Shown piece by piece: positions 7,080 to 60,548 of a stretch of 64,000 nt of DNA. The stretch is from an uncultured Candidatus Saccharibacteria bacterium (GTDB lineage: Bacteria; Patescibacteriota; Minisyncoccia; 2-02-FULL-40-12; GWA2-44-9). The translations under genes and the position numbers were made by a program. Location: positions 40,048 through 104,047 of the forward strand of contig CAZAUE010000002.1 of assembly GCA_964488565.1 (NCBI GenBank), read 5' to 3'. The stretch's first letter is position 1; every line of letters begins with the position of its first letter. The notes beneath the pieces are model-generated. The model made no database searches. It saw nothing but the letters and a program-made list of their open reading frames with translations, and was not told the DNA's origin.

Positions 7080-7212
7080 GAGTAGTGTTTAAATCTGGTA
7101 TTCAGAAATTTAGTATCAAAACTAAAAACCAAAAAACAGATTATGATTATGCTTGAGATAATTTTAACACAACCAAAGAATAAGTTGTAAACATTTGTAA
7201 ACAAAAAAGACC

Positions 7213-10172: not shown

Positions 10173-10368
10173 GTTTAAATACCAACAAAAGAGTGACCTG
10201 CCTGCGCAGGCAGGGAAACAAACTGGCCGAATATCTCAAGTAATAATTAAGATATTTGGCCAAATTATAGCCCCTTATAGTTAGTTTTTTGCGCCCTTGT
10301 TGGTTGTTAATTAACTTATCATGAAGATACCACAACACTTAAGAAAAATCCAGCCTTTAGCTGGATTT

Positions 10369-10881
10369 TTACTTCAGAAGAATCTTATCTTTCAACTCCT
10401 CTAGATCTGTGAAATTATTGGCAACATCTATTAATTTTGAACTGGCGCTTCTTTTGAAACCAACGACTTCTACGATTATTCCACTGAATTTAAGGTATTC
10501 TACCAATGGCTCATAGTCACCATCTCCTGATACAAGCACCACAACATCAAGTTGTTTAGATAAGCTGATTGCATCTACAGCAATAGCCACATCCCAATCT
10601 CCCTTTTTCATTCCCCCTGGGAATATCTGAAGGTCTTTGGATTTTAATTCGTAACCAGCCTTTTCAAGGGCATCAAAAAAGGCCTTCTCTTCATCGGTAT
10701 CGGATTTAACCACGTAGGCAATAGCTCTAACCAACTCTCTATTTGCGGTTGCGACCTTCAAAAGTTCACGAAAATTTACTCGTGATTTATAGAGATTTTT
10801 TGCCGAATGGTACATGTTTGAGACATCGACAAAAACACCAATTCTGTGATTCTTTCTTTGAGGGACCGTTACTTTGTGCAT
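10369..10881 (-). CDS. NYN/LabA-like (PIN-related) domain protein
   Basis: IGVFVDVSNMYH...DVAIAVDAI...VVLVSGDGDY motifs typical of the NYN/LabA family. Encoded immediately upstream of rpsO-pnp. Confidence 0.65.
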   Translation of the reverse strand: MHKVTVPQRKNHRIGVFVDVSNMYHSAKNLYKSRVNFRELLKVATANRELVRAIAYVVKSDTDEEKAFFDALEKAGYELKSKDLQIFPGGMKKGDWDVAIAVDAISLSKQLDVVVLVSGDGDYEPLVEYLKFSGIIVEVVGFKRSASSKLIDVANNFTDLEELKDKILLK

Positions 10882-10899
10882 GAGATAGTGAAAACTCTA

Positions 10900-11166
10900 T
10901 TATTTATCCAAACCTAACTTCTTAACAACTGAAGAGTGTCTTTTTGGAGCTTCTCTTTTCAAGTAATCCAGGAGTCGTTTTCTTTTTGAAACCATCTTTA
11001 AAAGTCCGAGTCTGGATGAGTTGTCTTTTCCGTGCTTTTTGAGGTGCTTAGCCAACTGTTCAATTTCTTCAGTAAACAAAGCAATCTGCGCTTCAGCAGA
11101 TCCTGTATCCTTGTCGTGAATCTTGACCTTGTCTATGACTTTTGTTTTTTCCTTTGGAGTTAACAT
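10900..11166 (-). CDS. rpsO: 30S ribosomal protein S15
   Basis: 88 aa. Matches the S15 consensus (DTGSAEAQIALFTEEIEQLAKHLKKHGKDNSSRLGLLKMVSKRKRLLDYLK). Confidence 0.9.
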   Translation of the reverse strand: MLTPKEKTKVIDKVKIHDKDTGSAEAQIALFTEEIEQLAKHLKKHGKDNSSRLGLLKMVSKRKRLLDYLKREAPKRHSSVVKKLGLDK

Positions 11167-11358
11167 GAATTTGTGCGTATCTTCCAGTCGTAACCAGATG
11201 ACCGCGGTTAATATTTCAATATCTGCTTATTTTACCACAACAAAAACAAATCTGCAAACCCTCTTTTCTTTCCATTTTTTACAGAAAATTCTATACTTAT
11301 TATGCGACAGAGTTCCTCGGTGGGCTAAAGCACCACCAGGAAACCACTCCGCCCACCC

Positions 11359-12270
11359 ATGGACATTAAGACACTAAAAATCCAATATCTTGAACATCTA
11401 GAAATAGAGAAGAATCGTTCAGCTAAAACCCTTGAGAATTACGGGCGTTATTTGGATAGATTTTTACAATTCGCAAAAGTTTCCAATCCATCAGGAATTA
11501 CCGAAGATTTAATAAGACAGTACCGACTTCACTTAAACCGCCTGAAAGACAAAGAGGGGAACACTCTAAAAAAAGTCACCCAAAACTATCACATCATTGC
11601 CTTAAGAAATTTTTTGAAGTATTTAGCCAAAAGAGATATAAAATCCGTCCCAGCTGAAAAGGTTGAATTAGGAAAACAAGAAGATAGAGAAGTCACATTT
11701 CTTGAGGCTGATGAATTAGAAAGATTATTAAAATCACCCGAAGGAGATAATTTAGACACATTAAGAGACAGGGCTGTTCTTGGTACTTTGTTTAGTACTG
11801 GCATGCGTGTCTCTGAGCTTTGTTCATTGGATAGAAATAAAATAGACACAACTCGAGGAGAGCTAAGCATACGCGGGAAGGGGAGTAAGATTAGGGTGGT
11901 GTTTCTTTCTGATGACGCCAAAGAAGACATCAGTAAATACCTCTCTAAGCGTTCCGACATTGATGAGGCTCTTTTTATTCGAATTCCTAAATCAAAAACT
12001 TTTTCCAAAGACGACAACTTAAGGCTTACCCCACGAAGCATCCAAAGAATAGTTCAAAAATACGCCACCAAATCCGGCATCATGGGAAAGAGTGTCAGCC
12101 CTCACACCTTGCGTCACAGTTATGCCACCGACCTTCTACGCAATGGTGCCGACATCCGCTCCGTTCAGTCAATGCTCGGACACTCATCCGTCACTACAAC
12201 TCAAATCTATACTCACGTTACAGACAAGCAACTTAGAGAAGTGCACAAGAAATTTCATAACAAAAAATGA
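11359..12270 (+). CDS. xerC: tyrosine recombinase XerC/XerD family
   Basis: N-terminal SAM-like domain. Catalytic region with R...HTLRHSYAT...Y (TQIYTHV). 303 aa. Confidence 0.85.
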   Translation: MDIKTLKIQYLEHLEIEKNRSAKTLENYGRYLDRFLQFAKVSNPSGITEDLIRQYRLHLNRLKDKEGNTLKKVTQNYHIIALRNFLKYLAKRDIKSVPAEKVELGKQEDREVTFLEADELERLLKSPEGDNLDTLRDRAVLGTLFSTGMRVSELCSLDRNKIDTTRGELSIRGKGSKIRVVFLSDDAKEDISKYLSKRSDIDEALFIRIPKSKTFSKDDNLRLTPRSIQRIVQKYATKSGIMGKSVSPHTLRHSYATDLLRNGADIRSVQSMLGHSSVTTTQIYTHVTDKQLREVHKKFHNKK

Positions 12271-12287
12271 ACCGACAAATCGGTTCA

Positions 12288-12683
12288 TTAAAATCTTTTA
12301 GATCTAAGTTCTGGTCCATAATATGGATGTTTTCTTTTCTCGCCACAATGAGGACACTTGAAACTCAACCAATACTTATAGACATGGGAATGTAATCTCT
12401 CTGGGTCACCGCCCAACCACTTACACTCGTATTCATAATCTGGCAAAACCGGACCTTCAATTTTCACAATTTTACCTATGGCCATATAGCTAAAAGAAGA
12501 ATTTTTAGCACAAAATCTTGCTTCAATGGCCAAAGCCATATCACCAACTCTAAAAACTTTCTTTTCTTTTGTTCTTGATTCACATTCTATGGCTTTTCTT
12601 TGAGTACGATATTTAGTTCCACAAACTTCACATTGAAAAGAGCGGACTGTATGCGCAGGAACTCGTCTGATTATCTTCTTCAT
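12288..12683 (-). CDS. zinc-ribbon protein, hypothetical
   Basis: CEVCG...CPHCGEK Cys pairs. 131 aa. Overlaps the start of the downstream M23 gene by 4 nt (operon). Confidence 0.4.
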   Translation of the reverse strand: MKKIIRRVPAHTVRSFQCEVCGTKYRTQRKAIECESRTKEKKVFRVGDMALAIEARFCAKNSSFSYMAIGKIVKIEGPVLPDYEYECKWLGGDPERLHSHVYKYWLSFKCPHCGEKRKHPYYGPELRSKRF

Positions 12684-13612
12684 TGTATTTCTCCATAAGG
12701 AAGGGCTGAGTTGATTGTATCAATAAACACTAGCGGGTCAACGTTCGTTCCATGAACTTTAATCATGAAATGAAGATGTGGAGATGCTTTCCGAGGCGTT
12801 GCTCCTGTTAAGGCAACAACCTGCCCCTTTTTAACAACATCTCCAACCTTAACTTTAAATTTAGACAAGTGCAGATACAAAGAAATAACTCCGGAGCCGT
12901 GATCAATGATGAGCATGTTTCCTTCTGTCCCTTGAATCGGAAAATTATGGGCCAGCAGAACTCGTCCTGAATTAATTGCAACAACAGGTAGGGGAGTTCT
13001 GGCCCTTAAGTCCGTTCCGGCATGATAAACAGTTTGTTGAATTTTTATTTTCTTTGTCTTTTTATCACGCTGTCCGTACAAGCGGGGAGTGCCAAAGTTA
13101 TCGGTTTTTTCAATACTTTCTAATGGATACAAGAATGGCCCCACCGCATAATTTTCATAAAAATTGGCGGATTTATATGCTTTGTTTTTTATTGCCTGCT
13201 CTTTGGCACGTTGCTCTTGAATGAGTTTATTTTTGGGTCTAAGTGAACCAACAAACCAAGGATCTCCGAAAACAGTTTCCTTAACATCTATGTGAGTATA
13301 ATAGAAATCAAACTGTTTAGCTTTCTGATATTCTTGATATTCAACCAAATAGACCAAATAACTACCCGGCTTTTGACTGATCTCGACTCCAACAAAAACA
13401 AATCCATTAGAGTCAAAAGGGTAGTCTCTATCAAAAACACGAAGCCCCAAATTTTTACCAACCAAATCGGAAGCGACTCTCACCACTAAAACTTCGCCCT
13501 GATTAACAAATGACTTACGGTTGTAAACCTCGAAGCTCTGAGCATAAGCTTGGGATAGTGATAAAAACATAAAGCAAATAATGGCCCCGGCCATTCGTAC
13601 ACATTTTTGCAT
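12680..13612 (-). CDS. M23 family metallopeptidase, secreted
   Basis: Signal peptide, then C-terminal M23 motifs (HAGTDL...; GNMLIIDHGSGVISLYLHL; GATPRKASPHLHFMIKVHG). Confidence 0.75.
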   Translation of the reverse strand: MQKCVRMAGAIICFMFLSLSQAYAQSFEVYNRKSFVNQGEVLVVRVASDLVGKNLGLRVFDRDYPFDSNGFVFVGVEISQKPGSYLVYLVEYQEYQKAKQFDFYYTHIDVKETVFGDPWFVGSLRPKNKLIQEQRAKEQAIKNKAYKSANFYENYAVGPFLYPLESIEKTDNFGTPRLYGQRDKKTKKIKIQQTVYHAGTDLRARTPLPVVAINSGRVLLAHNFPIQGTEGNMLIIDHGSGVISLYLHLSKFKVKVGDVVKKGQVVALTGATPRKASPHLHFMIKVHGTNVDPLVFIDTINSALPYGEIQ

Positions 13613-13702
13613 TGTAAAGGTCCTTCTTTGATACTAATTGCTTACAAAAATACCGCATTTAGCGGTATTGGTAAAGGAGGAGGAAGTCTGGGGGGGACTC
13701 GG

Positions 13703-13880
13703 TCACAGATAATTCTTCACTACTGGGGAGGGACTCGCCCACAAGTTGAATTGTCTTCCGACAATTCTCTTGCGGGCCCAGCTCGTGGTTTCGCTCGCCA
13801 ATTGCTCGCGAAACATCACTGCGCTTTTCGAGTCACTACGCGAGCCAAGCAGTTGGCTCGCTCCCTCGGGCTACTGAGTA
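13703..13880. repeat. GC-rich insert downstream of tRNA-Leu carrying a partial duplicate of the tRNA 3' end
   Basis: ctggggagggactcg at 13723-13737 duplicates the tRNA-Leu T-arm and acceptor sequence (13929-13943). It shares the cccagctcgtggttt...aacatcactgcgcttt module with 32470-32530. GC content is far above the flanks. Confidence 0.6.
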
Positions 13881-13920
13881 GTAAATTAAAATCGCTGTAA
13901 TTACAGCGATTTTAATTTAC
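13881..13920. repeat. perfect 40-bp palindrome (bidirectional hairpin terminator) at the tRNA-Leu 3' end
   Basis: gtaaattaaaatcgctgtaa|ttacagcgattttaatttac: perfect 20-bp arms. Separates tRNA-Leu from the GC-rich insert. Confidence 0.7.
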
Positions 13921-13925
13921 TAAAG

Positions 13926-14007
13926 TGCCCGGGGAGGGACTCGAACCCTCAATCCTTACGGAACACGATTTTAAGTCGTGCGTGTATACCAATTCCACCA
14001 CCCGGGC
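13926..14007 (-). tRNA. tRNA-Leu (anticodon TAA), long variable arm
   Basis: Minus-strand cloverleaf: acceptor gcccggg/cccgggc, anticodon loop cuUAAaa, T arm gaggg-ttcgagt-ccctc. No encoded CCA. Confidence 0.75.
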
Positions 14008-14121
14008 AAACATATTTCTGCCTTAATTTATCATAAATTCCAAATAATATAAACCCTCCTTTACAGCCCTCGGGACTTGTGAGAAAATCTTCTTGCTCTT
14101 TAAAATCAGAGGACTCAAAAA

Positions 14122-14787
14122 GTGTTGGGAACAAAACCATCCAAAAAAGTTATTACTTTTGCCATATCCGACAAGGAATATAAAAAATTTGGCTGTCCTG
14201 TTTGCGGACACGCTACAAGTAAGTGGTCATTCATGGGTGGTGGTGGATTAGTCGTAACATGTAAAAATACTAACTGCGAATCTATTTTTTATATCCTCAT
14301 TGGAAACTTCAAATCTTTTTACGTTAGATTTACCGATAAAACCGGCAAGTGTTTTACCCCAAAACTAGAAACGCATCCACGCAAAAACATACCTGCGTGG
14401 GGTGCAAGAGAGGATAAGAGATCACCAAAGACGGGCGAATTTTTTACGAACCCAAGCCAGTCTGAATATCGACACGGCCTTTGTTTTATTTGCAAAGATG
14501 TTTGCCGACTCCCGATTGACATAGAATGGCCAATGAAAAATCTTTTTTCTGTTAGCTTTAAAACACCCTGCGAAGAAGCGGCAAAAAGAATTCAAAAAAT
14601 CTTTGAAGCAAATGGACTTTGCATAAACACAGTAGGAAGTGGGGAAGAATATCCTCCTTCATTTTATCTTATAAACGTTTCCAGTTGCGTTGCTCACAAA
14701 CCCAATCTCTTAGAACTCCAAAAGGTTGCAAGAGAGAAGGGGGTCATCAACAAGAAAATCCTTTCAAAAATAAAGGCCCTCAAGTAG
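14122..14787 (+). CDS. hypothetical Cys-rich (zinc-finger-like) protein
   Basis: 221 aa with CPVCGH...CKNTNC and further Cys/His clusters. Lies between two tRNA genes. Terminator hairpin at 14788-14820. Confidence 0.4.
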   Translation: MLGTKPSKKVITFAISDKEYKKFGCPVCGHATSKWSFMGGGGLVVTCKNTNCESIFYILIGNFKSFYVRFTDKTGKCFTPKLETHPRKNIPAWGAREDKRSPKTGEFFTNPSQSEYRHGLCFICKDVCRLPIDIEWPMKNLFSVSFKTPCEEAAKRIQKIFEANGLCINTVGSGEEYPPSFYLINVSSCVAHKPNLLELQKVAREKGVINKKILSKIKALK

Positions 14788-14817
14788 GGTCTTTTTTATA
14801 TCTGATATTTTTACTTG

Positions 14818-14889
14818 AGGCGGCGGGCGGAATCGAACCGCCGTATAGGAGTTTTGCAGACTCCTGCCTTACCACTTGGCTACGCCGCC
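14818..14889 (-). tRNA. tRNA-Cys (anticodon GCA)
   Basis: Acceptor ggcggcg/cgccgcc, anticodon loop cuGCAaa, T arm ggcgg-ttcgatt-ccgcc, discriminator U73 as expected for Cys. Confidence 0.75.
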
Positions 14890-14895
14890 CTAACC

Positions 14896-16425
14896 TTAAA
14901 TAGAACGCTTGATTCTTTCCTCCTCGTATATATCTAATATATCTCCAACCTTAACATCTGCAAAATCTTTAGAAACAATATCAAACCTAATTCCAGCTTC
15001 AAGACCTTCTTTAACTTCAGGCATATCTTCTTTATTGTGCTGAAGTTGGCCAATCTTGCCCGTAATCACAACTAAACCGTTTCTTGTAACATCTCCCATT
15101 GCCCCCCTGACAACTTTGCCTGACATAACTCTGCCTCCAAATATTTGAGCTCTAGCATCTTTTTTAAACGTTGCCAAAACTTTTAATTTTCCAAGAGGAT
15201 TTTTCTTTATCTCCGCTCCCAAGAGAGCTGACATTTCTTCTCTAACATATTCTATTAATTCATAAATAATATCAAAATTAGATATTTTGATTCCTTCTTT
15301 GTCTGCTATTTTTTTTGCTGACTCTTCTGTTCCAACCCTAAAACCAATAACCTGACATTTTGAAGCAACAGCTGTTTTAATGTCGGCTTCAGAAATATTA
15401 CCAATATCATACGATATAACACGATAACCAATCTCAACTGATTTTATTGCCTTAAGTGAAGCTTCTATTGCTTCTAAAGAACTTGAGACGTCAGATTTAA
15501 AAACAAGATTCAAAAACTTTTTATTTTCATCACCAGTCTCAACGGAACCCTTAAAGAAAGTGAATAGGGGAGCGAGGTTAATATTACCTTCAGCAATTTT
15601 AGTTGCTTCGTCTTTGTTTGGAGCCACAACAAATTCTTTGCCGATATCCGGAGTTGTTGGCCATCCTGTAACCAAAACAGGCTGAGATGGTTTGGCCTGA
15701 ACAATGGCTTTGCCCATGAAATCTTCCATAGATTTTACTTTTCCAACAACAGTTCCAACAACGAGCCAGTCGCCCACACTAAGAATTCCTTTTTGAATCA
15801 ATACGGTGGCGACGTAGCCCCTTCTTTTATCTAGATTGGATTCAATTATTATTCCCGTAGCCGGTGATTCTAAATCTTCATTTAATTCTTCGAGCTCTGC
15901 CACCAAAAGAATCATGTCTAAAAGGGCATCTATGTTTCTGCCTTCTTTAGCTGAAATTTCTATAACAGGAACTGTTCCACCCCAATCTTCAACCAAAACA
16001 TCTTCTGTCGCTAAGTCTTGTTTAACCTTTTGAACATTTGCCCCTTCTTTGTCCATCTTATTTAATGCAACAATAAAAGGAATCTTCGCTTCTTTGATAA
16101 TTTTAATAGCTTCTTTTGTTTGAGGCTTTACGCTTTCATCGGCGGCAACCACCAAAATAGCAATGTCGGCCACTTTTGCCCCACGAGAACGAATGGCAGT
16201 AAAAGCTTCATGACCAGGTGTATCTAAAAAGGTAATAATCTTCCCATTAATATCTGTCTGATATGCTCCGATATGCTGAGTTATCCCACCAGATTCTCCT
16301 TCAGCTATTTTTGTTTTTCTTATTGTATCCAAGAGTTTTGTCTTGCCATGGTCGACATGACCCAAAACGACCACCACTGGTGGTCTTACGTTTTTGCCGT
16401 TTTTTATATCTTTAATGTCTGCCAT
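14896..16425 (-). CDS. infB: translation initiation factor IF-2 (short form lacking N-terminal domains)
   Basis: G domain VVLGHVDHGKTKLLD...DTPGHEAF...NKMD, followed by the IF-2 beta-barrel domains. Only 509 aa. Confidence 0.9.
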   Translation of the reverse strand: MADIKDIKNGKNVRPPVVVVLGHVDHGKTKLLDTIRKTKIAEGESGGITQHIGAYQTDINGKIITFLDTPGHEAFTAIRSRGAKVADIAILVVAADESVKPQTKEAIKIIKEAKIPFIVALNKMDKEGANVQKVKQDLATEDVLVEDWGGTVPVIEISAKEGRNIDALLDMILLVAELEELNEDLESPATGIIIESNLDKRRGYVATVLIQKGILSVGDWLVVGTVVGKVKSMEDFMGKAIVQAKPSQPVLVTGWPTTPDIGKEFVVAPNKDEATKIAEGNINLAPLFTFFKGSVETGDENKKFLNLVFKSDVSSSLEAIEASLKAIKSVEIGYRVISYDIGNISEADIKTAVASKCQVIGFRVGTEESAKKIADKEGIKISNFDIIYELIEYVREEMSALLGAEIKKNPLGKLKVLATFKKDARAQIFGGRVMSGKVVRGAMGDVTRNGLVVITGKIGQLQHNKEDMPEVKEGLEAGIRFDIVSKDFADVKVGDILDIYEEERIKRSI

Positions 16426-16525
16426 TTGAACCCGTAAATTATATCATTTTAAGCCCAAAATATCAATAAAAACCTACCTAAGAAGTTGAAATGAAACAAA
16501 AATAATGTTAAAATAGTATGGATTT

Positions 16526-16615
16526 GGAGACGTGTCAGAGTGGTCTAATGTGCCTCTTTGCTAAAGAGGTGATCGGTTTATCCCGGTCCGGAGGTTCGAA
16601 TCCTCCCGTCTCCGC
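16526..16615 (+). tRNA. tRNA-Ser (anticodon GCT), long variable arm
   Basis: Acceptor ggagacg/cgtctcc, anticodon loop uuGCUaa, long variable arm, T arm ggagg-ttcgaat-cctcc. Confidence 0.75.
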
Positions 16616-16761
16616 AGTGATAAATAAGGACAGCCGGTGGCTGTCCTTATTTAGTATCAATGCGTGATAGGGAGGATGAGAAAGGCGGAGCGCTGGCGCG
16701 AGCCGGGGTCGCGGAATTTTTCAGTAGAAAAATATCTGTGACCGAATCCTCCCGTCTCCGC
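16616..16761. repeat. about 145-bp GC-rich insert after tRNA-Ser ending in a 19-bp duplicate of the tRNA 3' end
   Basis: cgaatcctcccgtctccgc at 16597-16615 is repeated at 16743-16761. The insert begins with a terminator hairpin (aaataaggacagccggtggctgtccttattt) and contains the cgcgagccggggtcgcgg module. Confidence 0.65.
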
Positions 16762-16765
16762 CAAC

Positions 16766-17488
16766 TTACCCCCTCGCAACCACCAAAGCTACAACTCTTG
16801 AGGCTCCACCAGCCTTCAAGATCTTGGCACATTCATTTAATGTTGCTCCCGTGGTGCAAACATCATCTACCAACAACACCTCTCGCCCAATTATTTTTTC
16901 TTTATTTTTTATCCTAAAAATTCCATTCAAATTTTTTAATCTTTCTTCTCTCTCTTTAATGTCTGCCTGTGGGGTGGCGTTAATTGTTCGCTCAACAACA
17001 TCAACCGCCATTTCCATTTGAAATGTATCGGAGATATTTTTGGCCAATAATTCTGACTGATTAAAACCTCTCCAATTTAAACGCCTCAAATGAAGAGGCA
17101 CGGGAATCAAAAGGGGATTAGACTCAAAGACATTAAACTTTTTATCCAACGTTAGCCACTTAAGATACTTCTTAATTAAAACAGATAATGGCTGTTCCAA
17201 ATCAGATATAAATTTATACTTAAAGAACTTGAGAGTTTTTTCAACTAAGTGATTCTTATAATCCGCCACAATTAACAACTGATCAGCGGGGTTGGTCTTG
17301 GTGCAAAGAAAACAGGTTTGCCCAAAAGGAGTGTTCCTTTTACATCCTATGCATTCAAAGGACTTCTTTGTTGGTATTGCCCCAAGACATCCTCGACAAA
17401 CATAATCGCCAAAATCACCACAATCTATACATCTAATAGGGAAAATTGTATCCAAGAGCCAAACAAGGCCTTTCTGGGGATAATTCAT
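16766..17488 (-). CDS. comFC: competence protein ComFC (phosphoribosyltransferase-type)
   Basis: N-terminal Cys4 zinc finger (CIDCGDFGDYVCRGC). C-terminal PRTase motif VLLVDDVCTTGATL. Confidence 0.8.
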   Translation of the reverse strand: MNYPQKGLVWLLDTIFPIRCIDCGDFGDYVCRGCLGAIPTKKSFECIGCKRNTPFGQTCFLCTKTNPADQLLIVADYKNHLVEKTLKFFKYKFISDLEQPLSVLIKKYLKWLTLDKKFNVFESNPLLIPVPLHLRRLNWRGFNQSELLAKNISDTFQMEMAVDVVERTINATPQADIKEREERLKNLNGIFRIKNKEKIIGREVLLVDDVCTTGATLNECAKILKAGGASRVVALVVARG

Positions 17489-17530
17489 AATATATAGACA
17501 AAGATATTATGCTATACTTTTATTGTAGTA

Positions 17531-18616
17531 ATGTTTAATCTTTTTAAAGAAAAAGGCAAACTCGGCATCGACATCGGGACAGCTGCCATCAAAATTGTTG
17601 AACTTGATAAATCAGGCGGTCGTTTTGCTTTAAAAAATTACGGCCTTTTTGAACTAAAAGGCACAGACGTCCAATCATCCGGACCAGGCATGGGTCAGAG
17701 TATTTTGAAACTACCAGATCAAGAAATTATTTGGGGATTAAAAGAGTTAATAAGAAAAAGCAATATTAAATCCACAGACGCCATAGCCTCGATTCCATCT
17801 TTTTCAACTTTTACAACAATTATTGAGGTACCATATCTTTCAGAACAAGAATTGGCCAAGTCCTTACCTTTTGAAGCTCGCAAATATATTCCGATACCTC
17901 TGGATGAAGTTATTCTTGATTGGTCTATTATTGATATTACGAATCCGACTGTTTCAAAAGTTGTTGGTTCGGTTCCAAAACCGACCACAGTACAAGTATT
18001 TCTTGCTGCCGTACCAAAGGATGAGACTGAAAAGTATAGAAGAATAATGAAAGGTGCTGGATTAAACCTAAAAGCTCTTGAGTTGGAAAACACTGCTCTC
18101 ATTAGAGCTCTCCTTGGAAATGACCTGTCCCCAACAGCCATAGTAAACATTGGGGGGCGCAGCACTTCAATTGTTATCGTTGATAAGGGGTACGAACGAG
18201 TAAGTCATAATTATGAAATAGGTGGTTTTGAAATAACGAAGTCCATTGCCCGTTCTTTAAATGTAAGCATTGAGAAAGCGGAAGAGTTAAAAAGAAAGAT
18301 GGGTATGAATAAGGCCGATGAAAATATTGTTAACGAGGCCATGGTTTCTTTGATTGATATGATGGTTTTTGAAACCAAAAAAACTATCAGCAACTATGAA
18401 GGTGCCAAAAAACAAAAAATATCTAGGGTTCTCCTTGTTGGGGGATTGACCAATATGCCCAGCTTCGTAGATTACTTTAAACAAAAACTGAATATGGATG
18501 TTTATGGCGCTAATGCTTTTGCAAGAATTATTTACCCCGAACAATTAAAGCCCGTCATTCAAGAATTGGCCAACACATTTTCTATCGCCGCGGGCCTTGC
18601 CATGAGAGATATCTAA
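17531..18616 (+). CDS. pilM: type IV pilus assembly protein PilM (actin-like ATPase)
   Basis: LGIDIGTAAIKIVEL N-terminus, 361 aa, first gene of the pil operon. Confidence 0.8.
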   Translation: MFNLFKEKGKLGIDIGTAAIKIVELDKSGGRFALKNYGLFELKGTDVQSSGPGMGQSILKLPDQEIIWGLKELIRKSNIKSTDAIASIPSFSTFTTIIEVPYLSEQELAKSLPFEARKYIPIPLDEVILDWSIIDITNPTVSKVVGSVPKPTTVQVFLAAVPKDETEKYRRIMKGAGLNLKALELENTALIRALLGNDLSPTAIVNIGGRSTSIVIVDKGYERVSHNYEIGGFEITKSIARSLNVSIEKAEELKRKMGMNKADENIVNEAMVSLIDMMVFETKKTISNYEGAKKQKISRVLLVGGLTNMPSFVDYFKQKLNMDVYGANAFARIIYPEQLKPVIQELANTFSIAAGLAMRDI

Positions 18617-18658
18617 TGTTGATAACAAGTTTAGTCTATTAAGGTATACTTTATTAAG

Positions 18659-19213
18659 ATGCCAGATCAAGGTGGATTACAATTGCTTCCCGAGACAAGG
18701 AGAAAGATAGATGTAAAAGTTCCGGGAGAAAACAGACTTCTTTACTCAGGAGTCGCTATTTTTGTCTTAATTCTTATTGCCATAGGTGGTCTTTATTTTT
18801 ACAAGAACACCATGGAAAACAAGTTGGTAGAATTAGATGCGCAAATACTAGACCTTGAGAAAGCTCGAGACAAAAACGTTGAGACAAATCTTTTAGTCCT
18901 AAACAAACAGTTGTCCCTTATCTCAACTCTTCTTGATTCGCATATTGTTTGGTCAAAAGCATTTGGTAAGGTTGAGAGTTTATTACATCCACAAGTTCAG
19001 TTCCTAACTTTTGCTGCTGCTGTTTCTGATAATAGGTTTGAGTTTAAAGCTCTAGCTCCAAATTATACCGTAGTAGCAAAACAAATGGCCGCCCTTGTTT
19101 CAGACGATTCAATAAAAGATTTGGCCCTTATCAATGTTCACGTCTTAACTTCAGGAAAATTAGAATTCAGTATTAAGATAGAATTTGATAAAACTAAATT
19201 CATAAAAGAATGA
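18659..19213 (+). CDS. pilN: PilN-like bitopic membrane protein
   Basis: Short cytoplasmic N-terminus, single TM, coiled-coil periplasmic part. Positioned after pilM. Confidence 0.55.
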   Translation: MPDQGGLQLLPETRRKIDVKVPGENRLLYSGVAIFVLILIAIGGLYFYKNTMENKLVELDAQILDLEKARDKNVETNLLVLNKQLSLISTLLDSHIVWSKAFGKVESLLHPQVQFLTFAAAVSDNRFEFKALAPNYTVVAKQMAALVSDDSIKDLALINVHVLTSGKLEFSIKIEFDKTKFIKE

Positions 19214-19737
19214 ACAAAAACTACACCGGAGCAGGATTGATAGCCATAACCATTGTTTTGTTTTGGGCAATGGCTTTTCCAACCTATAACAGAATTTCTG
19301 ACCTAGATGTTGCCATTAAAGAACGAGAAGAGCTTTTAAGTTCCAGAAACACAATCATCGCTAATATAAAAAAATTAAATACTGAATACCAAAAAAGGAT
19401 TCCTGAAATCACCAAGCTGTCAGCAATTGTCCCTTCAAAGAAAAGTGTCGCTGAAATCTTATCAGCCATTAATGATGTGTCCGCAAAAAATGGAGTTGAA
19501 CTGTTTAGCTCGTCAATAATCGGCCAAAAAACATCTAACGCAGATGCTAGTCCTTTTAATCTTTTGTCTTTGGACATTGGTCTGAATGGAACCTACCCCG
19601 GCTTAACTAATTTCCTTAGAGGTTTAGAAAAAAACCTACGACTTGTAGACATAACATCGGTTGATGCAGCGGTCGGAACAGGGACAATTTCAGTTTTAAA
19701 TTTCACAATTAAAGGAAACGCGTATTATTTAAAATAA
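19210..19737 (+). CDS. pilO: PilO-like bitopic membrane protein
   Basis: N-terminal TM followed by a coiled coil. Start codon overlaps the pilN stop. Confidence 0.5.
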   Translation: MNKNYTGAGLIAITIVLFWAMAFPTYNRISDLDVAIKEREELLSSRNTIIANIKKLNTEYQKRIPEITKLSAIVPSKKSVAEILSAINDVSAKNGVELFSSSIIGQKTSNADASPFNLLSLDIGLNGTYPGLTNFLRGLEKNLRLVDITSVDAAVGTGTISVLNFTIKGNAYYLK

Positions 19738-20021
19738 TGGCTCCACAACAATCAAACAACCAGAACACACTTATAATAGCCTTAATATTGGTGGCCGGTT
19801 TCGCTGTGGGATATTTTTACTACTCACAATGGGTAGTTCCAGCAAGAGTCCTTATTGATCCACCTCCAGTAGCGGCAAGAGACGATCTTAAAAAATTTGA
19901 GAATTTAAAAATAGATTTTTCAATATTAGACAATAAAAAATACAAAGCCTTAGAAATTTTTGGAGAGTCACCTGTAAATCCTGGAGTTACAGGAAAGAGA
20001 GATATTTTTGCCCCGATTTAA
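19737..20021 (+). CDS. small TM protein of the pilus operon (PilP-like?)
   Basis: 94 aa, one TM helix, overlaps the pilO stop. Function inferred only from position. Confidence 0.35.
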   Translation: MAPQQSNNQNTLIIALILVAGFAVGYFYYSQWVVPARVLIDPPPVAARDDLKKFENLKIDFSILDNKKYKALEIFGESPVNPGVTGKRDIFAPI

Positions 20022-35254: not shown

Positions 35255-35326
35255 GGGCCCGCCCTCACACCTACTTAGCACTGAGGGCCTCCGGCCCTAA
35301 AGTGTTATTGTGCTAAGTAGGTGTGA
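35255..35326. repeat. 65-bp palindromic insert flanked by a 7-bp direct repeat (gggcccg) at the 5' end of tRNA-Ala(CGC)
   Basis: Perfect 20-bp arms ccctcacacctacttagcac / gtgctaagtaggtgtgaggg (35262-35281 / 35310-35329) with a GC hairpin in the loop. gggcccg at 35255-35261 duplicates the tRNA acceptor 5' strand at 35327-35333. Confidence 0.65.
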
Positions 35327-35397
35327 GGGCCCGTAGTTAAGTGGCATAACGCGACATTCGCATTGTCGAGGCGGGAGTTCGATTCTCCCCGGGTCCA
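35327..35397 (+). tRNA. tRNA-Ala (anticodon CGC)
   Basis: Acceptor gggcccg/cgggucc with G3:U70, anticodon stem cgaca/tgtcg, loop uuCGCau, T arm gggag-ttcgatt-ctccc. Confidence 0.7.
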
Positions 35398-51125: not shown

Positions 51126-51375
51126 AAGTTTTAGTATACTTTTTATTTCTTGGAGGGTCAACCCCGCCGTTGAAGAGCAGAATTTATAATTATTAACCAA
51201 TTAACCCTAAAATCTCCATTGATTAACTATTTTTTAAAATAAAAAATTTAATTTTATGATTACACTGCTTTTCAACGGCGGGGTCAATATTGTTTTAATA
51301 TTTTCCACTTGTTATACACAATATATCAACTAATTTCTTGTCCCGCTAAATTTTTAACAAGGTATAATAAAACGT

Positions 51376-52749
51376 ATGACCAACGAAGAACTATGGAAAG
51401 CGGTGTTAGGAGAAATGGAATTGTCTTTAACCAAGGCAAATTTTACTACTTGGTTTAGGAACACCACTATTTTATCTAAAGATAAAAACGCTGTCGTTGT
51501 AAGTGTGCCTAATGGTTTTATTAAAGAATGGCTTGAAAACAAATTTAACAAAAGAATTCTTCAGTCTATTAGAAACCAGACCCCTGAAATAAGAGAGATA
51601 AAATATCTCATCGGCCGACCCAAAATAGAGCTTGCAAAACAAGACCTATCAAAAATGAATCTCGATACTGAGATAGACGAGAAAGCCGAATCGGATCTTG
51701 ATAAGGATCTAGATAAGACAACCAACCTAAACAGGAAATATACATTTGATTCTTTTGTTGTAGGTTCAAATAATGAGCTGGCTCATGCTGCTGCTTCGGC
51801 TGTAACCAAAAATCTTGGACGACTTTATAATCCACTATTCCTTTATGGTGGTGTTGGGTTAGGCAAAACCCACCTCCTTCAGTCTATTGGCAATAAGATA
51901 GCCGCGGAAAATAGGGATAAGAAAATATATTACATTCCCGCAGAAAGATTTACTGCTGAAATTGTGGAGGCAATCAGAAACAAAAACATAGAAGAGTTAA
52001 AAAATCAGTATTCAAAACTAGACCTACTCATGATTGATGATGTTCAGTTTATCGCCGGCAAAGAAAAGACTCAGGACATATTCTTTTCAACGTTCAATGA
52101 ACTCTATAGCCGAAACAAGCAAATAATTCTTTCCTCGGATCGACCTCCTCAAACAATTCCCGCACTTGAAGAACGTTTACGTTCACGCTTTCAAGGTGGC
52201 ATGGTCGCTGATGTTGGTCTGCCTGATTTTGAAACTAGGTTAGCTATCTTGAAATTAAAAGCTGCTGAAAGAAATTATGATCTTAATTTAGAGGTCCTCA
52301 CTTATATAGCTACTCACATCCAGAAAAATGTCAGAGAGCTTGAAGGAGCCTTAAACAGGGTAGTGGCTTTTGGTCAAATCTATAATAGAGTTCCCGATAT
52401 AAAAGAAGTAAAAAACATTCTAAACACCTACCTAAGCACTCCTTATAGAAAAACTTCTCCTCAGGTAATTCTTAAGTCGGTTGCCGATTTTTATAGTATT
52501 TCTTTGGCTGATTTAGTAAAAAGAAGTCGAAAGAAAGAAATTGTTAGACCTAGACAAATAGCCATGTTTTTACTTAGAGAGGAGACTAAATTATCCTTCC
52601 CTGAAATAGGTCAAAAATTAGGTGGGCGTGACCATTCAACTGTTATCCATGCTTGTGAGAAAATTAAAAACGAAGTTTCAGTAGATGAACCATTAAAACA
52701 AGAATTAATTTTGATAAAAGAACGTGTTTATAATTCGTTTGATAAGTAG
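51376..52749 (+). CDS. dnaA: chromosomal replication initiator DnaA
   Basis: N-terminal domain I, AAA+ Walker A GGVGLGKTHL, Walker B LLMIDDVQF, sensor and Arg finger, and a C-terminal DnaA-box-binding HTH. 457 aa. Confidence 0.95.
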   Translation: MTNEELWKAVLGEMELSLTKANFTTWFRNTTILSKDKNAVVVSVPNGFIKEWLENKFNKRILQSIRNQTPEIREIKYLIGRPKIELAKQDLSKMNLDTEIDEKAESDLDKDLDKTTNLNRKYTFDSFVVGSNNELAHAAASAVTKNLGRLYNPLFLYGGVGLGKTHLLQSIGNKIAAENRDKKIYYIPAERFTAEIVEAIRNKNIEELKNQYSKLDLLMIDDVQFIAGKEKTQDIFFSTFNELYSRNKQIILSSDRPPQTIPALEERLRSRFQGGMVADVGLPDFETRLAILKLKAAERNYDLNLEVLTYIATHIQKNVRELEGALNRVVAFGQIYNRVPDIKEVKNILNTYLSTPYRKTSPQVILKSVADFYSISLADLVKRSRKKEIVRPRQIAMFLLREETKLSFPEIGQKLGGRDHSTVIHACEKIKNEVSVDEPLKQELILIKERVYNSFDK

Positions 52750-52752
52750 TGA

Positions 52753-53022
52753 GGTCAGGTAATTAACATATTTAACAATCTTAGCGGAGCGGATTTTAGC
52801 CAAATCCGAGACGCGAGGATGAAGCTGTAGTTTATTCTACTGCGAGTCCGAGTAACGAAGGATTTGGTCTAAAATCAGCCCGCCCTCAGAGGGAAGCAAT
52901 GAATAGACCGATTTCTTTATCACTCCTCCTTGTCATAGAACAATCTATGTCTTCGTCGTCGTTTCTTGAACTCGGTCTATTCATTAGTTTCTAATGTTGT
53001 TAAATATGTTAATTACCTGACC
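52753..53022. mobile_element. MITE-like element with 26-bp perfect terminal inverted repeats inserted at the dnaA stop codon
   Basis: ggtcaggtaattaacatatttaacaa (52753-52778) pairs with ttgttaaatatgttaattacctgacc (52997-53022). The roughly 220-bp core has further internal inverted repeats (ggattttagccaaatcc / ggatttggtctaaaatc). No ORF. Confidence 0.6.
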
Positions 53023-53026
53023 ACAA

Positions 53027-53244
53027 ACTTGTTGATAAATTTGGAAATAAAAAGTTATCATTTATATATCCAGATGTAATTAGTACTTTATTAACATTTA
53101 AACAAAACAAAATTTAACCAATTTAGTTAATGATTACGTGATAAAAGTAATATCATCCACAAAGTTTTCAACATTTCCACAGCCCTAATAATAGTAATAA
53201 TATTTTAATCTAATAGTTATAAGAAGAGATCCACTATCCACTTT
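53027..53244. promoter_or_regulatory. putative oriC segment / dnaN promoter region with DnaA-box-like motifs and an AT-rich unwinding region
   Basis: TCATCCACA (53153-53161), ATTTCCACA (53173-53181), CTATCCACT and GATCCACT (53229-53243) approximate the TTATCCACA consensus. The intervening sequence is more than 80% AT. Classic dnaA-dnaN intergenic location. Confidence 0.5.
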
Positions 53245-54336
53245 ATGAAAATAACAGTTAATCAAAAAAATCTTAAGAAAGCATTAAGTCTGGTTGAGAA
53301 GGTTGTTTCTAAAAATTCATCTCTTCCGATTTTAAATAACATTCTTCTTAAAACTGAAAATGGGCGTCTTAAAATTTCAGCCACAAATCTTGAGATAGGA
53401 ATTAATTATATTATTGGCGCTAAAATTGAAGAGGTAGGTCAGATAGCCGTACCCGCAAGAATTATTTCAGATTTTATAGGAAATATAATGGACGACAAAG
53501 TTTCCTTAACAACAAAGAATAATATTTTAAGCATAAATTCCGACAGGTATAAGACTCAAATTCTTGGTTTTGATGCTAAAGATTTTCCAATAATACCTAA
53601 AATAAAATCCCAACCCCTAGCTGCTATTCCGACTAAACTTCTTAAAAATTCACTTATGACAGTTTTAGATTCAGTAGCTGTATCAGAAACAAGACCAGAA
53701 CTAGCAGGAGTCTATATGAATTTTAATAACGACAAGATTGTATTTGCAGCCACTGATAGTTTTAGATTAACTGAAAAAAGTGTTGATTTTAAAAATGTTC
53801 AAAAACAATTTTTCATCATTCCAAGAAACACAGTCGTAGAATTAATAAGAATAGCAGGAGAGATAGAAGGGGATTTATCGTTTAATACTAGCGATAATCA
53901 AGTATCTTTCTTTAATGATGATTTTGAAATGGTATCAAGGATTGTAGATGGAAATTATCCTGATTATAAAAAAATAATTCCTGAAAAATCTGTATCTAGG
54001 GTATTGGTAAACAAAAACGAATTAGATAAAAACATACGCATAGCAGGTTTATTCTCAACAAACATATCCGATATAAAAATTAACTGTTCTGAAGGTAAGA
54101 TGGCTATTTTAGCCAAAAACTCAGACAAAGGAGAAATTGAGACTCTTGTTGAAGCATCTCTTAAGAATGAACCATTTGAAGTTTCTTTAAACTTCCACTA
54201 CCTTCTTGATGGTTTAAAAATATTAGATACAGAAAAAATTATTATAGAATTTACAGGACAAGGTAGTCCTTTGGTAATAAGACCTAATGATGACAAAAAA
54301 GATGTGGTCTATCTCATTATGCCCCTAAGAAGTTAA
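53245..54336 (+). CDS. dnaN: DNA polymerase III beta sliding clamp
   Basis: 363 aa, three-domain clamp architecture, conserved position after dnaA. Confidence 0.9.
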   Translation: MKITVNQKNLKKALSLVEKVVSKNSSLPILNNILLKTENGRLKISATNLEIGINYIIGAKIEEVGQIAVPARIISDFIGNIMDDKVSLTTKNNILSINSDRYKTQILGFDAKDFPIIPKIKSQPLAAIPTKLLKNSLMTVLDSVAVSETRPELAGVYMNFNNDKIVFAATDSFRLTEKSVDFKNVQKQFFIIPRNTVVELIRIAGEIEGDLSFNTSDNQVSFFNDDFEMVSRIVDGNYPDYKKIIPEKSVSRVLVNKNELDKNIRIAGLFSTNISDIKINCSEGKMAILAKNSDKGEIETLVEASLKNEPFEVSLNFHYLLDGLKILDTEKIIIEFTGQGSPLVIRPNDDKKDVVYLIMPLRS

Positions 54337-59302: not shown

Positions 59303-60349
59303 TTACAATAAGGTTTCTTTTACGGGTCGGCCTATGTGTTTTAATCCATTTGAAGTGATAATTCGGCCTTTGGGTGTTCGAGATAAAAATCCCATTTGCA
59401 TTAAGTATGGTTCGTAGACATCTTCAATCGTTCCTTCTTCTTCTGAAATGGCTGCTGCGATGGATTTAAGGCCTACGGGTCCGCCATCGAATTTTTCTGC
59501 GATAGCCAAGAGAATCTTCCTGTCGGTTTCCTCGAGGCCCTTGTGGTCAATTTCTAGAAGCTTAAGGCTCTCTTTGGCCAAGGTCTCGTTAATATAATCA
59601 ACATCTTTCATTTGTGCGTAGTCGCGAACCCTCTTTAATAGACGATTGGCTACGCGAGGAGTGTATCTAGATGAGGTGGCCACTATCTGTATTGCTGGCT
59701 TATCTATTTTTACAGATAATAATTCAGCAGAGCGACTAATTATTTTTTCAATATCCTCGTCTTTGTAAAAATCTAATCTGAAACTTACTCCGAATCTTGA
59801 ACGAAATGGAGCAGAGAGAAGTGAAATCTTTGTTGTTGCAGCTATCAAAGTAAATCTCGGAAGATCAATCTGAAGGGTTTTTGCTGAATTGCCTTTGCCG
59901 ATAACGATATCGAGTTTGAAGTTCTCCATCGCTGGATATATGACTTCTTCCACCATCTTATTAAGTCTGTGAACCTCATCAATAAACAAAACATCTCCAT
60001 CACTAAGACCTGTTAGTATTGAGCCGACATCACCAGCTTTTTCCAAAGCCGTGCCCGAAGTTATTTTGATACTTGCCCCGAGTTCTTTGGCGATAAGATA
60101 GGCGAGTGTAGTCTTTCCTAGTCCGGATGGACCATGAAGAAGTAGGTGCTCTATGGGCTCTTTGCGCTTCTTTGCCGCTCCAATGACCACTTTTAGGTTT
60201 TCTTTTATTCTGTTTTGGCCAATATATTCGTCAAAAGTTTTGGGCCTCAAAGCCTGATCAAGTAATTGATCCTCAGGGACAGGTTTTGGGGTCATAGAAT
60301 TAGGCTTGACATTCATGGCAATTTGAACTAAAATATGTAGACTATACAA
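59303..60349 (-). CDS. ruvB: Holliday junction branch-migration helicase RuvB
   Basis: AAA+ Walker A GPSGLGKTTLA, Walker B VLFIDEVHRL, sensor 2, and a C-terminal winged helix. 348 aa. No ruvA seen between ruvC and ruvB. Confidence 0.9.
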   Translation of the reverse strand: MYSLHILVQIAMNVKPNSMTPKPVPEDQLLDQALRPKTFDEYIGQNRIKENLKVVIGAAKKRKEPIEHLLLHGPSGLGKTTLAYLIAKELGASIKITSGTALEKAGDVGSILTGLSDGDVLFIDEVHRLNKMVEEVIYPAMENFKLDIVIGKGNSAKTLQIDLPRFTLIAATTKISLLSAPFRSRFGVSFRLDFYKDEDIEKIISRSAELLSVKIDKPAIQIVATSSRYTPRVANRLLKRVRDYAQMKDVDYINETLAKESLKLLEIDHKGLEETDRKILLAIAEKFDGGPVGLKSIAAAISEEEGTIEDVYEPYLMQMGFLSRTPKGRIITSNGLKHIGRPVKETLL

Positions 60350-60548
60350 GGACCTTTATAATCTGTAGGCAATTGGGTCGGAGTATTTTAATACATAGAT
60401 CCAATCGGGATATTATCTAGTTTGGATAGTTTGGTTTCGACTGGGCTACTCCTCGGAATTATCCTGCCCCGCGTTTTGTAAATTCGGGCATTTGCCTACA
60501 GATTATATGGGTTCTTTTCTTTTCCCGCCAATTTTGGCGGGTTTAATT

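What the first reader, a model, noticed from the sequence alone, without database searches (positions are those of the whole stretch)
52747..53244. MITE-like element inserted exactly at the dnaA stop codon, within the dnaA-dnaN origin region
A roughly 270-bp element with perfect 26-bp terminal inverted repeats and nested internal inverted repeats begins 4 bp after the dnaA TAG stop and ends about 220 bp before dnaN. It is followed by the AT-rich DnaA-box-bearing segment that is the likely oriC. A non-autonomous transposable element inside the origin spacer of a streamlined genome is unusual. It could affect oriC function or dnaN expression. Alternatively the inverted repeats are functional origin architecture.
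Basis: seen in the sequence. Interest (0 to 1): 0.55.

Follow-up and report, generated by a model that had tools for sequence, protein, structure and literature searches.

The report
Palindromic insertion element beside dnaA stop
A 270-base hairpin-forming piece of DNA was inserted just after the dnaA gene of a groundwater Yanofskybacteria (CPR) genome; most close relatives lack it, so it is a mobile-type insertion and not part of the replication origin, though no second copy or transposition footprint was found.

Summary
A 270-nt element (52753-53022) with perfect 26-nt terminal inverted repeats (27 bp once paired) lies 3 nt after the dnaA TAG and 222 nt before dnaN. It folds very strongly (z about -11).

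It is an insertion. Nine other lineages, including one whose DnaA is 99.1% identical, have an 8-nt empty site at the same place. Only one other lineage (L023) carries it, at exactly the same position. The two carriers are not sister lineages (0 of 500 bootstraps). The two copies are 95% identical, although the hosts differ by dS of about 0.6. The element has therefore moved or spread horizontally, or is under strong constraint.

MITE membership is not established. There is no target-site duplication. No other copy turned up in the 64-kb window, in GTDB representative genomes, in JGI metagenomes, or in viral, phage and plasmid collections. No matching IS was found. Rfam gave no hit, and with two alleles there is no covariation.

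The DnaA-box cluster downstream (53026-53244) is intact and is conserved with or without the element, so the idea that the repeats are origin architecture is not supported.

Other genuine small MITEs with duplications sit around dnaA in this clade, so such insertions are not unusual here. Interest is modest.

The parts
51376..52749 (+). dnaA; stop codon TAG at 52747-52749
   Evidence: Pfam Bac_DnaA, Bac_DnaA_C and DnaA_N. Identical to KKR02596.1 of Candidatus Yanofskybacteria bacterium GW2011_GWA1_39_13.
52753..53022 (.). Inserted palindromic element, 270-nt core (GGTCAGG...CCTGACC). The imperfect repeat extends to 52750-53025.
   Evidence: Absent from nine other lineages. Removing these 270 nt leaves 8 nt, the same length as the empty sites. 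Fold z about -11.
52753..52778 (+). Left terminal inverted repeat, 26 nt
   Evidence: Exact inverted match to 52997-53022; 0 matches expected by chance. Identical in the L023 allele.
52997..53022 (-). Right terminal inverted repeat, 26 nt
52784..52883 (.). Left internal hairpin: 16-bp lower stem and a purine-rich upper internal loop
   Evidence: MFE structure. Only 2 differences from L023, both in the apical loop.
52884..52892 (.). Small central hairpin at the palindrome centre (within CCCTCAGAGGG)
   Evidence: MFE structure. Identical in L023.
52893..52991 (.). Right internal hairpin: 19-bp lower stem and a pyrimidine-rich upper loop. This is the variable part.
   Evidence: 10 of the 13 differences from L023 fall here (Fisher p = 0.0008 against the rest of the element).
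52899..52994 (+). Candidate 31-codon ORF (MNRPISLSLLLVIEQSMSSSSFLELGLFISF) preceded by GAGGGA. Weak evidence only.
   Evidence: Intact in both alleles, with 6 synonymous and 4 non-synonymous differences (simulation p about 0.012-0.018). No homologue or family found.
53026..53244 (.). A+T-rich DnaA-box cluster and dnaN promoter region (likely oriC or part of it). Not part of the insertion.
   Evidence: 77% A+T and 7 DnaA-box-like sites, the densest such stretch in the window. Conserved blocks are shared with relatives that lack the element. Promoter-like sites at 53165-53201.
53245..54336 (+). dnaN
   Evidence: Pfam DNA_pol3_beta, all three domains.

Best explanation
It is a non-autonomous, hairpin-forming insertion element of the MITE or foldback type: 270 nt with 26-nt perfect terminal inverted repeats. 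It sits in a permissive position, between the dnaA stop codon and the first DnaA box of the dnaA-dnaN spacer.

Shown:
- It is an insertion.
- It occupies the identical site in two non-sister lineages of one Yanofskybacteria species complex.
- The two copies are far more alike than the neutral divergence of their hosts.

Inferred:
- It entered these lineages horizontally. This happened either by site-preferring insertion catalysed in trans by an unidentified enzyme, or by transfer of the occupied allele through homologous recombination, with later erosion of the linked flanks.
- It is not needed for origin function.
- Its likely consequences are passive. It moves dnaA 270 bp away from the DnaA-box cluster. 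It places a cruciform-capable palindrome next to oriC. If dnaA transcription reads through, it adds a 27-bp double-stranded RNA stem to the 3' end of the dnaA message. That stem could be a substrate for RNase III or a barrier between dnaA and dnaN transcription.
For: Empty sites: nine other lineages (DnaA 80-99.1% identical) have TAG + 8 nt (7 in L026) + CTTGTTGATAAA where the window has TAG + TGA + 270 nt + ACAAA + CTTGTTGATAAA.

Second occupied allele: L023, whose record name points to Hainich groundwater, has the element at the same nucleotide position.

The carriers are not sister lineages. Window groups with L003/L004/L024 (80% bootstrap) and L023 with L021/L026 (78%). A window+L023 clade appeared in 0 of 500 bootstraps.

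Element against host divergence: the two copies differ at 13 of 276 positions, while host dS is 0.57 (dnaN) and 0.66 (dnaA 3' end).

Flanks: outside the element the carriers share no special similarity. The only shared derived bases are those touching the element, A on the left and AC on the right.

Composition: the element is 59% A+T, against 77% for the spacer it interrupts.

Form: long perfect TIRs and a very stable fold are typical of prokaryotic MITEs (review PMC10969869).

Context: genuine small TIR elements with flanking duplications occur around dnaA in the same clade.

Origin region: the conserved motifs downstream are unchanged in carriers and non-carriers.
Against: There is no target-site duplication under any boundary choice. 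Three to six bases of the ancestral 8-mer appear to have been replaced instead.

No second copy was found:
- in the 64-kb window;
- in 185,579 GTDB representative genomes, using the exact 20-mer and a gapped 12+12 TIR pattern;
- in JGI metagenome contigs;
- in IMG/VR, where the only hits are chance matches inside a phage ORF;
- in the phage or plasmid collections.

No IS with matching ends is known.

The strong, uneven conservation goes beyond what a transposase-binding TIR alone requires: 2 differences in 173 nt of TIRs, left arm and centre, against 10 in 97 nt of the right arm (p = 0.0008).

The negative searches are weak evidence. The source genome is not among the GTDB representatives. At least one JGI contig that does carry the element (L035) was missed by the metagenome scan. 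Only about 64 kb of the source genome could be read.
Confidence: 0.55

Rival explanations
1. The element is a horizontally acquired functional module, not junk. It could be a structured RNA (a 3' UTR or small-RNA element), or a type-I-toxin-like cassette in which the 31-codon ORF in the right arm is translated and its GAGGG ribosome-binding site is masked by the central hairpin and the long pairing between the two ends.
For: The TIRs, left arm and centre are conserved as tightly as non-synonymous sites of dnaA and dnaN: 2 of 173 positions, against dN of 0.012-0.023. The ORF is intact in both alleles with 6 synonymous and 4 non-synonymous changes. Its dN/dS is about 0.17, simulation p about 0.012-0.018, and its dS of 0.34 is of the same order as host dS. 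The patchy distribution in intergenic DNA resembles accessory toxin-antitoxin loci (own knowledge).
Against: Rfam gave no match even at E <= 10. No promoter-like or terminator-like site was found in or next to the element on either strand. The predicted minimum-energy fold is not conserved. It is a three-way junction in the window allele, but a full-length rod in L023, favoured there by about 17 kcal/mol. Of the 4 substitutions that fall in predicted pairs, 2 break the pair and none is compensatory. The peptide has no homologue among 5.8 billion protein clusters and matches no Pfam or NCBIfam family. One substitution puts an Asp in the middle of its hydrophobic stretch. The coding signal rests on a single pair of sequences.
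Confidence: 0.15
2. The element is an old relic. It was inserted once in the ancestor of the seven-lineage clade, is no longer mobile, and was later deleted independently in most descendants.
For: The divergence of the variable right arm (10 of 97 positions) equals the overall nucleotide distance between the two hosts, about 0.097. The site is identical in both carriers. Palindromes are prone to deletion (own knowledge).
Against: This needs one gain plus two or three exact losses, against two gains. Empty sites in L003 and L024 read TTGGTAA(A/G), the same as the outgroups L011 and L012, whereas the carriers have A and AC next to the element. The empty sites therefore look ancestral, not like deletion scars. 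The neutral divergence expected from dS of about 0.6 is roughly 40%, far above even the right arm.
Confidence: 0.15
3. The inverted repeats are part of the replication-origin architecture, for example extra DnaA-binding sites or a cruciform that assists unwinding.
For: The element directly abuts the DnaA-box cluster. By eye, each TIR contains two adjacent 9-mers (TAATTAACA, TATTTAACA) that resemble the locally conserved TTATTAACA and TTATCAACA boxes. This was not tested statistically.
Against: The element is absent from nine related lineages, including one with 99.1% identical DnaA, and these retain every conserved spacer block. The TIR 9-mers have 3 mismatches to TTATCCACA and did not score in the scan allowing up to 2 mismatches. 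The composition is foreign to the spacer.
Confidence: 0.04
4. The element is an assembly artefact, a chimeric join or a palindrome created by the assembler.
For: Two Logan contigs begin inside the element or just after it (L034, L033).
Against: The identical element and junctions occur in at least nine contigs from different runs and assemblers (MEGAHIT ENA contigs, ANAN16 scaffolds, JGI). A diverged copy occurs in an unrelated German data set.
Confidence: 0.01

Closest known systems
Prokaryotic MITEs with long TIRs, e.g. Correia repeat-enclosed elements of Neisseria and QMITE2 of Coxiella
   Same: Small size and no transposase gene. The TIRs are about 23-29 bp; QMITE2 has TIRs of 23-29 bp and a predicted transcript fold of about -113 (PMC10969869). 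The location is intergenic, next to genes. Presence varies between strains. The stable hairpin could interact with RNase III, as described for Correia elements (PMC2649163 abstract).
   Different: Those elements have flanking direct repeats and many copies per genome. Here no duplication exists and only one copy per genome could be seen. This element is G+C-richer than its surroundings, whereas MITEs are typically A+T-rich. Its whole length is a degenerate palindrome: the left half is about 67% identical to the reverse complement of the right half.
ERIC / IRU imperfect palindromes of enterobacteria
   Same: An imperfect palindrome over the full length, located in intergenic DNA, present or absent at a given site between relatives, and conserved in sequence more than its flanks (own knowledge; copy numbers in PMC10969869).
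   Different: ERIC is 127 bp and occurs in tens to hundreds of copies. There is no sequence similarity. Multiple copies have not been shown here.
[quoted passage not shown]
   Same: A mobile element tolerated inside the dnaA-dnaN origin spacer, with non-random integration there (titles of Kurepina et al. 1998 and Turcios et al. 2009, cited in PMC3701491).
   Different: IS6110 is an autonomous 1.3-kb IS3-family element that makes duplications. This element is 270 nt and has no transposase.
Type I toxin-antitoxin loci (hok/sok, AapA/IsoA)
   Same: A cassette of about 250-300 nt, a roughly 30-codon ORF, long-range pairing between the 5' and 3' ends, a masked ribosome-binding site and a patchy strain distribution (own knowledge).
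   Different: No promoter, antisense RNA or family match was found. A 26-bp perfect end pairing is atypical. The peptide is not convincingly a membrane helix.
Small TIR elements of the same clade (L026/L003 type and the CCCTCACACCTACT type)
   Same: Same hosts and the same neighbourhood around dnaA. They form hairpins and insert at the edges of conserved regulatory DNA.
   Different: Those elements are 68-113 nt, have 4-7 bp flanking duplications, and occur at more than one locus. The focal element shares no sequence with them.

Membership tests
MITE (miniature inverted-repeat transposable element) | Small (under about 500 bp) and lacking a transposase gene | tested here: met
   270-276 nt. 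The only ORF has 31 codons and matches no family.
MITE (miniature inverted-repeat transposable element) | Terminal inverted repeats | tested here: met
   26-nt perfect TIRs; 0 of 100 shuffles gave any match.
MITE (miniature inverted-repeat transposable element) | Target-site duplication flanking the element | tested here: not met
   No direct repeat of 2 nt or more at any boundary choice in either allele. Flanks are TGA / ACAAA in the window and TTA / ACAAG in L023. The review notes that such repeats decay with time.
MITE (miniature inverted-repeat transposable element) | Several copies per genome, or a family of copies at different sites | tested here: inconclusive
   No other copy in the window or in any collection searched. 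Only about 64 kb of the source genome was readable, and the collections demonstrably miss carriers. Single-copy MITE occurrences are known.
MITE (miniature inverted-repeat transposable element) | An autonomous IS with the same ends that could mobilise it | tested here: inconclusive
   The TIR 20-mer has 0 hits in GTDB representatives and 1 chance hit in JGI metagenomes. Diverged ends would be missed.
MITE (miniature inverted-repeat transposable element) | Insertion polymorphism, with empty sites in relatives | tested here: met
   Nine lineages have the empty site and two have the element.
Described structured RNA family (Rfam) | Match to a covariance model | tested here: not met
   No hit at gathering score. 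At E <= 10 there are only four chance snoRNA hits, two of them partly overlapping the element.
Described structured RNA family (Rfam) | Structure conserved with compensatory changes | tested here: not met
   Only two alleles are available. Their minimum-energy folds differ (three-way junction against rod) and there is no compensatory pair.
Type I toxin-antitoxin | Small toxin ORF belonging to a known family, plus its own promoter and an antisense RNA | tested here: not met
   No Pfam or NCBIfam match. No promoter-like site on either strand. Expression itself cannot be tested with these tools.
oriC component | Conserved in orthologous origins of close relatives | tested here: not met
   Absent in nine lineages that keep the DnaA-box cluster.

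The most novel reading that the evidence does not exclude
The element is a site-specific selfish module that homes to the boundary between the dnaA stop codon and the first DnaA box, a conserved safe site. It inserts without duplication and is kept under selection because it acts as a structured RNA and/or encodes the 31-residue peptide with a masked ribosome-binding site (an addiction-like cassette). This would be a kind of element not yet described in CPR bacteria.
Probability: 0.1. Interest if true: 0.6.

Novelty: new member of a known kind. Interest (0 to 1): 0.3.

Why it matters
Small non-autonomous elements are hardly documented in CPR/Patescibacteria. A full-text search pairing "miniature inverted-repeat" with "Candidate Phyla Radiation" returned one unrelated paper.

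This case, together with the other small elements seen around dnaA, shows that even genomes of about 1 Mb in this clade take up hairpin-forming insertions. These settle at the very edges of the conserved origin and promoter DNA, next to stop or start codons.

If the element proved to be site-specific or functional, it would offer a marker for strain-level population structure. It would also be a possible handle on how dnaA and dnaN expression and oriC tolerate large local structures. As it stands it is a tidy example of a known phenomenon, not a surprise.

Tried and rejected
- Rfam over the whole window at gathering score, and over the region at E <= 10: nothing relevant.
- Other copies: BLAST and nhmmer of the element against the window and all 35 fetched loci gave only self matches and the carriers.
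- The exact 20-mer TIR gave 0 hits in GTDB representatives.
- The gapped 12+12 TIR pattern gave 0 hits in GTDB representatives.
- The 20-mer gave one single-arm chance hit in JGI metagenomes.
- The 18-mer in IMG/VR hit five related phage contigs, all inside a 441-aa ORF, so these are chance matches.
- Two internal 20-22-mers gave 0 hits in IMG/VR.
- blastn in distant mode against the phage and plasmid collections gave no match.
- The peptide and the 64-codon open frame, searched against 5.8 billion protein clusters, gave no hit. Pfam and NCBIfam gave no hit.
- Local origin of the element by duplication of nearby sequence is rejected. There is no similarity to anything else in the window.
- Retron, ribozyme, attC and IS200/IS605-type ends were considered from memory and dropped. 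There is no reverse transcriptase or recombinase nearby, no Rfam ribozyme hit, and long TIRs do not fit IS200/IS605.
- Homologous-recombination hitch-hiking with long shared flanks is rejected. The carriers share no derived sites beyond 1 nt on the left and 4 nt on the right. Transfer followed by erosion of the flanks is not excluded.
- An off-by-one comparison was corrected.
Full report
**What is there**

The window comes from Candidatus Yanofskybacteria bacterium GW2011_GWA1_39_13, a CPR bacterium from Rifle groundwater. Its DnaA and DnaN are identical to KKR02596.1 and KKR02595.1. dnaA (51376-52749) and dnaN (53245-54336) were confirmed with Pfam. The divergent rpmH-rnpA-yidD-yidC cluster lies upstream, which is the classical origin neighbourhood.

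- A perfect 26-nt inverted repeat lies at 52753-52778 and 52997-53022. No shuffle of the window gave any match. It is also the longest inverted repeat in the window.
- The repeat closes a 27-bp stem around three nested hairpins at 52784-52883, 52884-52892 and 52893-52991.
- The fold is extreme on both strands: -120 kcal/mol with z = -11.0 on the plus strand, and z = -11.3 on the minus strand. It is also strong with DNA parameters, at -63.5 kcal/mol.
- At least nine further contigs from different runs and assemblers carry the identical sequence, so it is not an artefact.

**It is an insertion**

I fetched the dnaA-dnaN spacer of relatives by looking up their DnaA or DnaN proteins.

- Nine other lineages lack the element (L003/L004, L005, L007, L009, L011, L012, L021, L024, L026; DnaA 80-99.1% identical).
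- Their spacers are 166-347 nt. The closest ones read TAG + TTGGTAA(A/G) or GTGATAAT + CTTGTTGATAAA. The window reads TAG + TGA + [270 nt] + ACAAA + CTTGTTGATAAA.
- Removing 52753-53022 leaves exactly 8 nt, the length of the empty sites.
- No direct repeat of 2 nt or more flanks the element under any boundary choice. Instead, 3-6 bases of the ancestral 8-mer differ.

**A second carrier, and what it shows**

One further lineage carries the element at exactly the same position. This is L023, an ENA contig whose record name points to Hainich groundwater.

- Tree: within the tight clade of seven lineages (Jukes-Cantor distance 0.075-0.10), the window groups with L003/L004/L024 (80% bootstrap) and L023 with L021/L026 (78%). 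A window+L023 pair was never recovered in 500 bootstraps.
- Host divergence: the two hosts differ by dS = 0.57 in dnaN and 0.66 in the dnaA 3' end.
- Element divergence: the two copies differ at only 13 of 276 positions. One lies outside the TIR, two in the apical loop of the left hairpin, and ten in the right hairpin.
- The difference in divergence between the right arm and the rest of the element is significant (Fisher p = 0.0008).
- Flanks: outside the element the carriers share no special similarity. The only derived bases they share against the four close non-carriers are the A and AC that touch the element.

Taken together, the two copies share a more recent ancestor than their hosts, or are strongly constrained, or both. 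The empty sites of L003 and L024 match the outgroups and so look ancestral, not like deletion scars.

I therefore read the distribution as horizontal spread. This could be repeated insertion into one preferred site. It could also be transfer of the occupied allele with later erosion of its flanks. These data cannot separate the two.

**Is it a MITE?**

Form and polymorphism fit: it is small, has long perfect TIRs and a stable fold, and relatives have empty sites. These are the features listed for prokaryotic MITEs in PMC10969869.

Three defining features were not met or stayed open:
- No target-site duplication exists.
- No second copy was found:
  - in the window;
  - in 185,579 GTDB representative genomes, with the exact 20-mer and a gapped 12+12 TIR pattern;
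  - in JGI metagenomes;
  - in IMG/VR;
  - in the phage and plasmid collections.
- No IS with the same ends was found.

These negatives are soft. The source genome is not in the GTDB representative set. A JGI contig that does carry the element (L035) was not returned by the metagenome scan. Only 64 kb of the source genome could be read. MITE-like is therefore a fair description of form and behaviour, but membership is not demonstrated.

**Structure and coding**

- Rfam gives nothing.
- The element as a whole is a degenerate palindrome. The left half is about 67% identical to the reverse complement of the right half.
- The purine-rich upper loop of the left arm is complementary to the pyrimidine-rich upper loop of the right arm. 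Two folds therefore compete.
- The three-way junction wins in the window allele (-120 against -102 kcal/mol). A full-length rod wins in L023 (-124.5 against -108 kcal/mol).
- Of the four substitutions that fall in predicted pairs, two break the pair and none is compensatory. There is no support for a conserved RNA structure, although two alleles cannot exclude one.
- A 31-codon ORF (52899-52994) preceded by GAGGGA is intact in both alleles. It shows 6 synonymous and 4 non-synonymous changes (dN/dS about 0.17, simulation p about 0.012-0.018).
- This is a hint, not a finding. It rests on one sequence pair. One change puts Asp into the hydrophobic stretch. No homologue or family exists. No promoter-like site was detected on either strand.

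**Relation to the origin**

- The 219 nt after the element are 77% A+T. They hold seven DnaA-box-like 9-mers, the densest such stretch in the window.
- They also contain blocks conserved down to relatives with 80% identical DnaA, for example GTTTTCAACATTTCCACAG and TAATAATAGTAATAAT.
- These blocks are the same in carriers and non-carriers. The first box (TGTTGATAA, 53030-53038) starts 8 nt after the element.
- The element is thus parked at the outer edge of the functional spacer and is dispensable for it. The origin-architecture alternative is not supported.
- GC skew within 64 kb is not decisive. There is a shallow local minimum near 52 kb, while the window minimum is at 18 kb.

**Context in the clade**

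Small hairpin insertions around dnaA are common in these genomes.

- A 107-113-nt element with CCCGTTAGAAG...CTTCTAACGGG ends sits at the dnaN start codon in L026 and at the rpmH start codon in L003/L004. In both places it is flanked by a duplicated ATGAA(A/T) context that regenerates the start codon.
- A palindromic element beginning CCCTCACACCTACT occurs upstream of dnaA in L012-L014 (flanked by TCAA) and next to tRNA-Ala in the window (35262-35329, flanked by CCCG).
- Every lineage examined has some hairpin at the same GGTCAA/TCAATATTG site upstream of dnaA.

The premise that such an element is unusual for a streamlined genome therefore does not hold for this clade. Mobile elements in the dnaA-dnaN spacer are also known elsewhere, for example IS6110 in M. 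tuberculosis (references in PMC3701491).

**Verdict**

The element is an insertion of mobile type and is not origin architecture, but it is not shown to be a repeated transposable element.
- The most likely mechanism is passive. It is a selfish or relic palindromic insertion in a permissive site. A possible side effect is a 27-bp double-stranded stem on dnaA read-through RNA (inferred, not shown).
- It is a new member of a known kind, and interest is modest (0.3).
- The unusual points are the identical site in non-sister lineages, the absence of a duplication, and conservation well above neutral expectation. These leave about a 10% chance of something more specific, such as a site-specific or functional module.

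Noticed in passing
L026:619-731 and L003:2178-2284 (also L004): A separate small TIR element family (ends CCCGTTAGAAG...CTTCTAACGGG, 107-113 nt, diverged interior). It is inserted at the dnaN start codon in L026 and at the rpmH start codon in L003/L004. It is flanked by duplicated ATGAA / ATTTCAT, so the start codon is regenerated. It is absent at both sites in the window.
   Followed up: partly
window 35262-35329; L012:2324-2407 (also L013, L014): A palindromic element beginning CCCTCACACCTACT occurs at two different loci in different genomes, each flanked by a 4-nt direct repeat. In the window it lies directly before tRNA-Ala(cgc), with CCCG flanks that regenerate the tRNA 5' end. In L012 it lies upstream of dnaA with TCAA flanks. 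It looks like a genuine MITE or REP-like family.
   Followed up: partly
window 51162-51283 (rpmH-dnaA spacer): A hairpin with 19-nt arms (CCCCGCCGTTGAAGAGCAG / CTGCTTTTCAACGGCGGGG) and an A+T-rich 84-nt loop, flanked by TCAA. Every relative has a hairpin at the same GGTCAA...TCAATATTG site, but with lineage-specific stem sequences. Window against L011 shows at least one compensatory C-G to T-A change. It is either a conserved structure next to the dnaA promoter and DnaA boxes, or a hot spot for the palindromic elements above.
   Followed up: partly
window 60348-60516: A 28-nt, 86% complementary inverted repeat pair 113 nt apart, in the gap between two minus-strand ORFs. No Rfam hit.
   Followed up: no
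L005:~4090-4157 and L009:~3875-3940, ~4160-4221: Other lineages have extra segments of about 55-65 nt right after the dnaA stop or right before the dnaN start, without clear inverted repeats. Insertions and deletions pile up at the two edges of the conserved spacer core.
   Followed up: partly
window 51355-51378: A TATAAT hexamer lies only about 9 nt upstream of the dnaA ATG and is conserved in relatives. This suggests a leaderless or nearly leaderless dnaA mRNA (seen by eye).
   Followed up: no
window 1-20000: The minimum of cumulative GC skew in the window is at about 18 kb, not at dnaA. Skew is weak and does not by itself place the origin.
   Followed up: partly
L035 (JGI 3300025030, 1.8-kb contig): This JGI contig carries the element, but the metagenome-contig scan for the TIR 20-mer did not return it. 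Negative scans of that collection are therefore not exhaustive.
   Followed up: no
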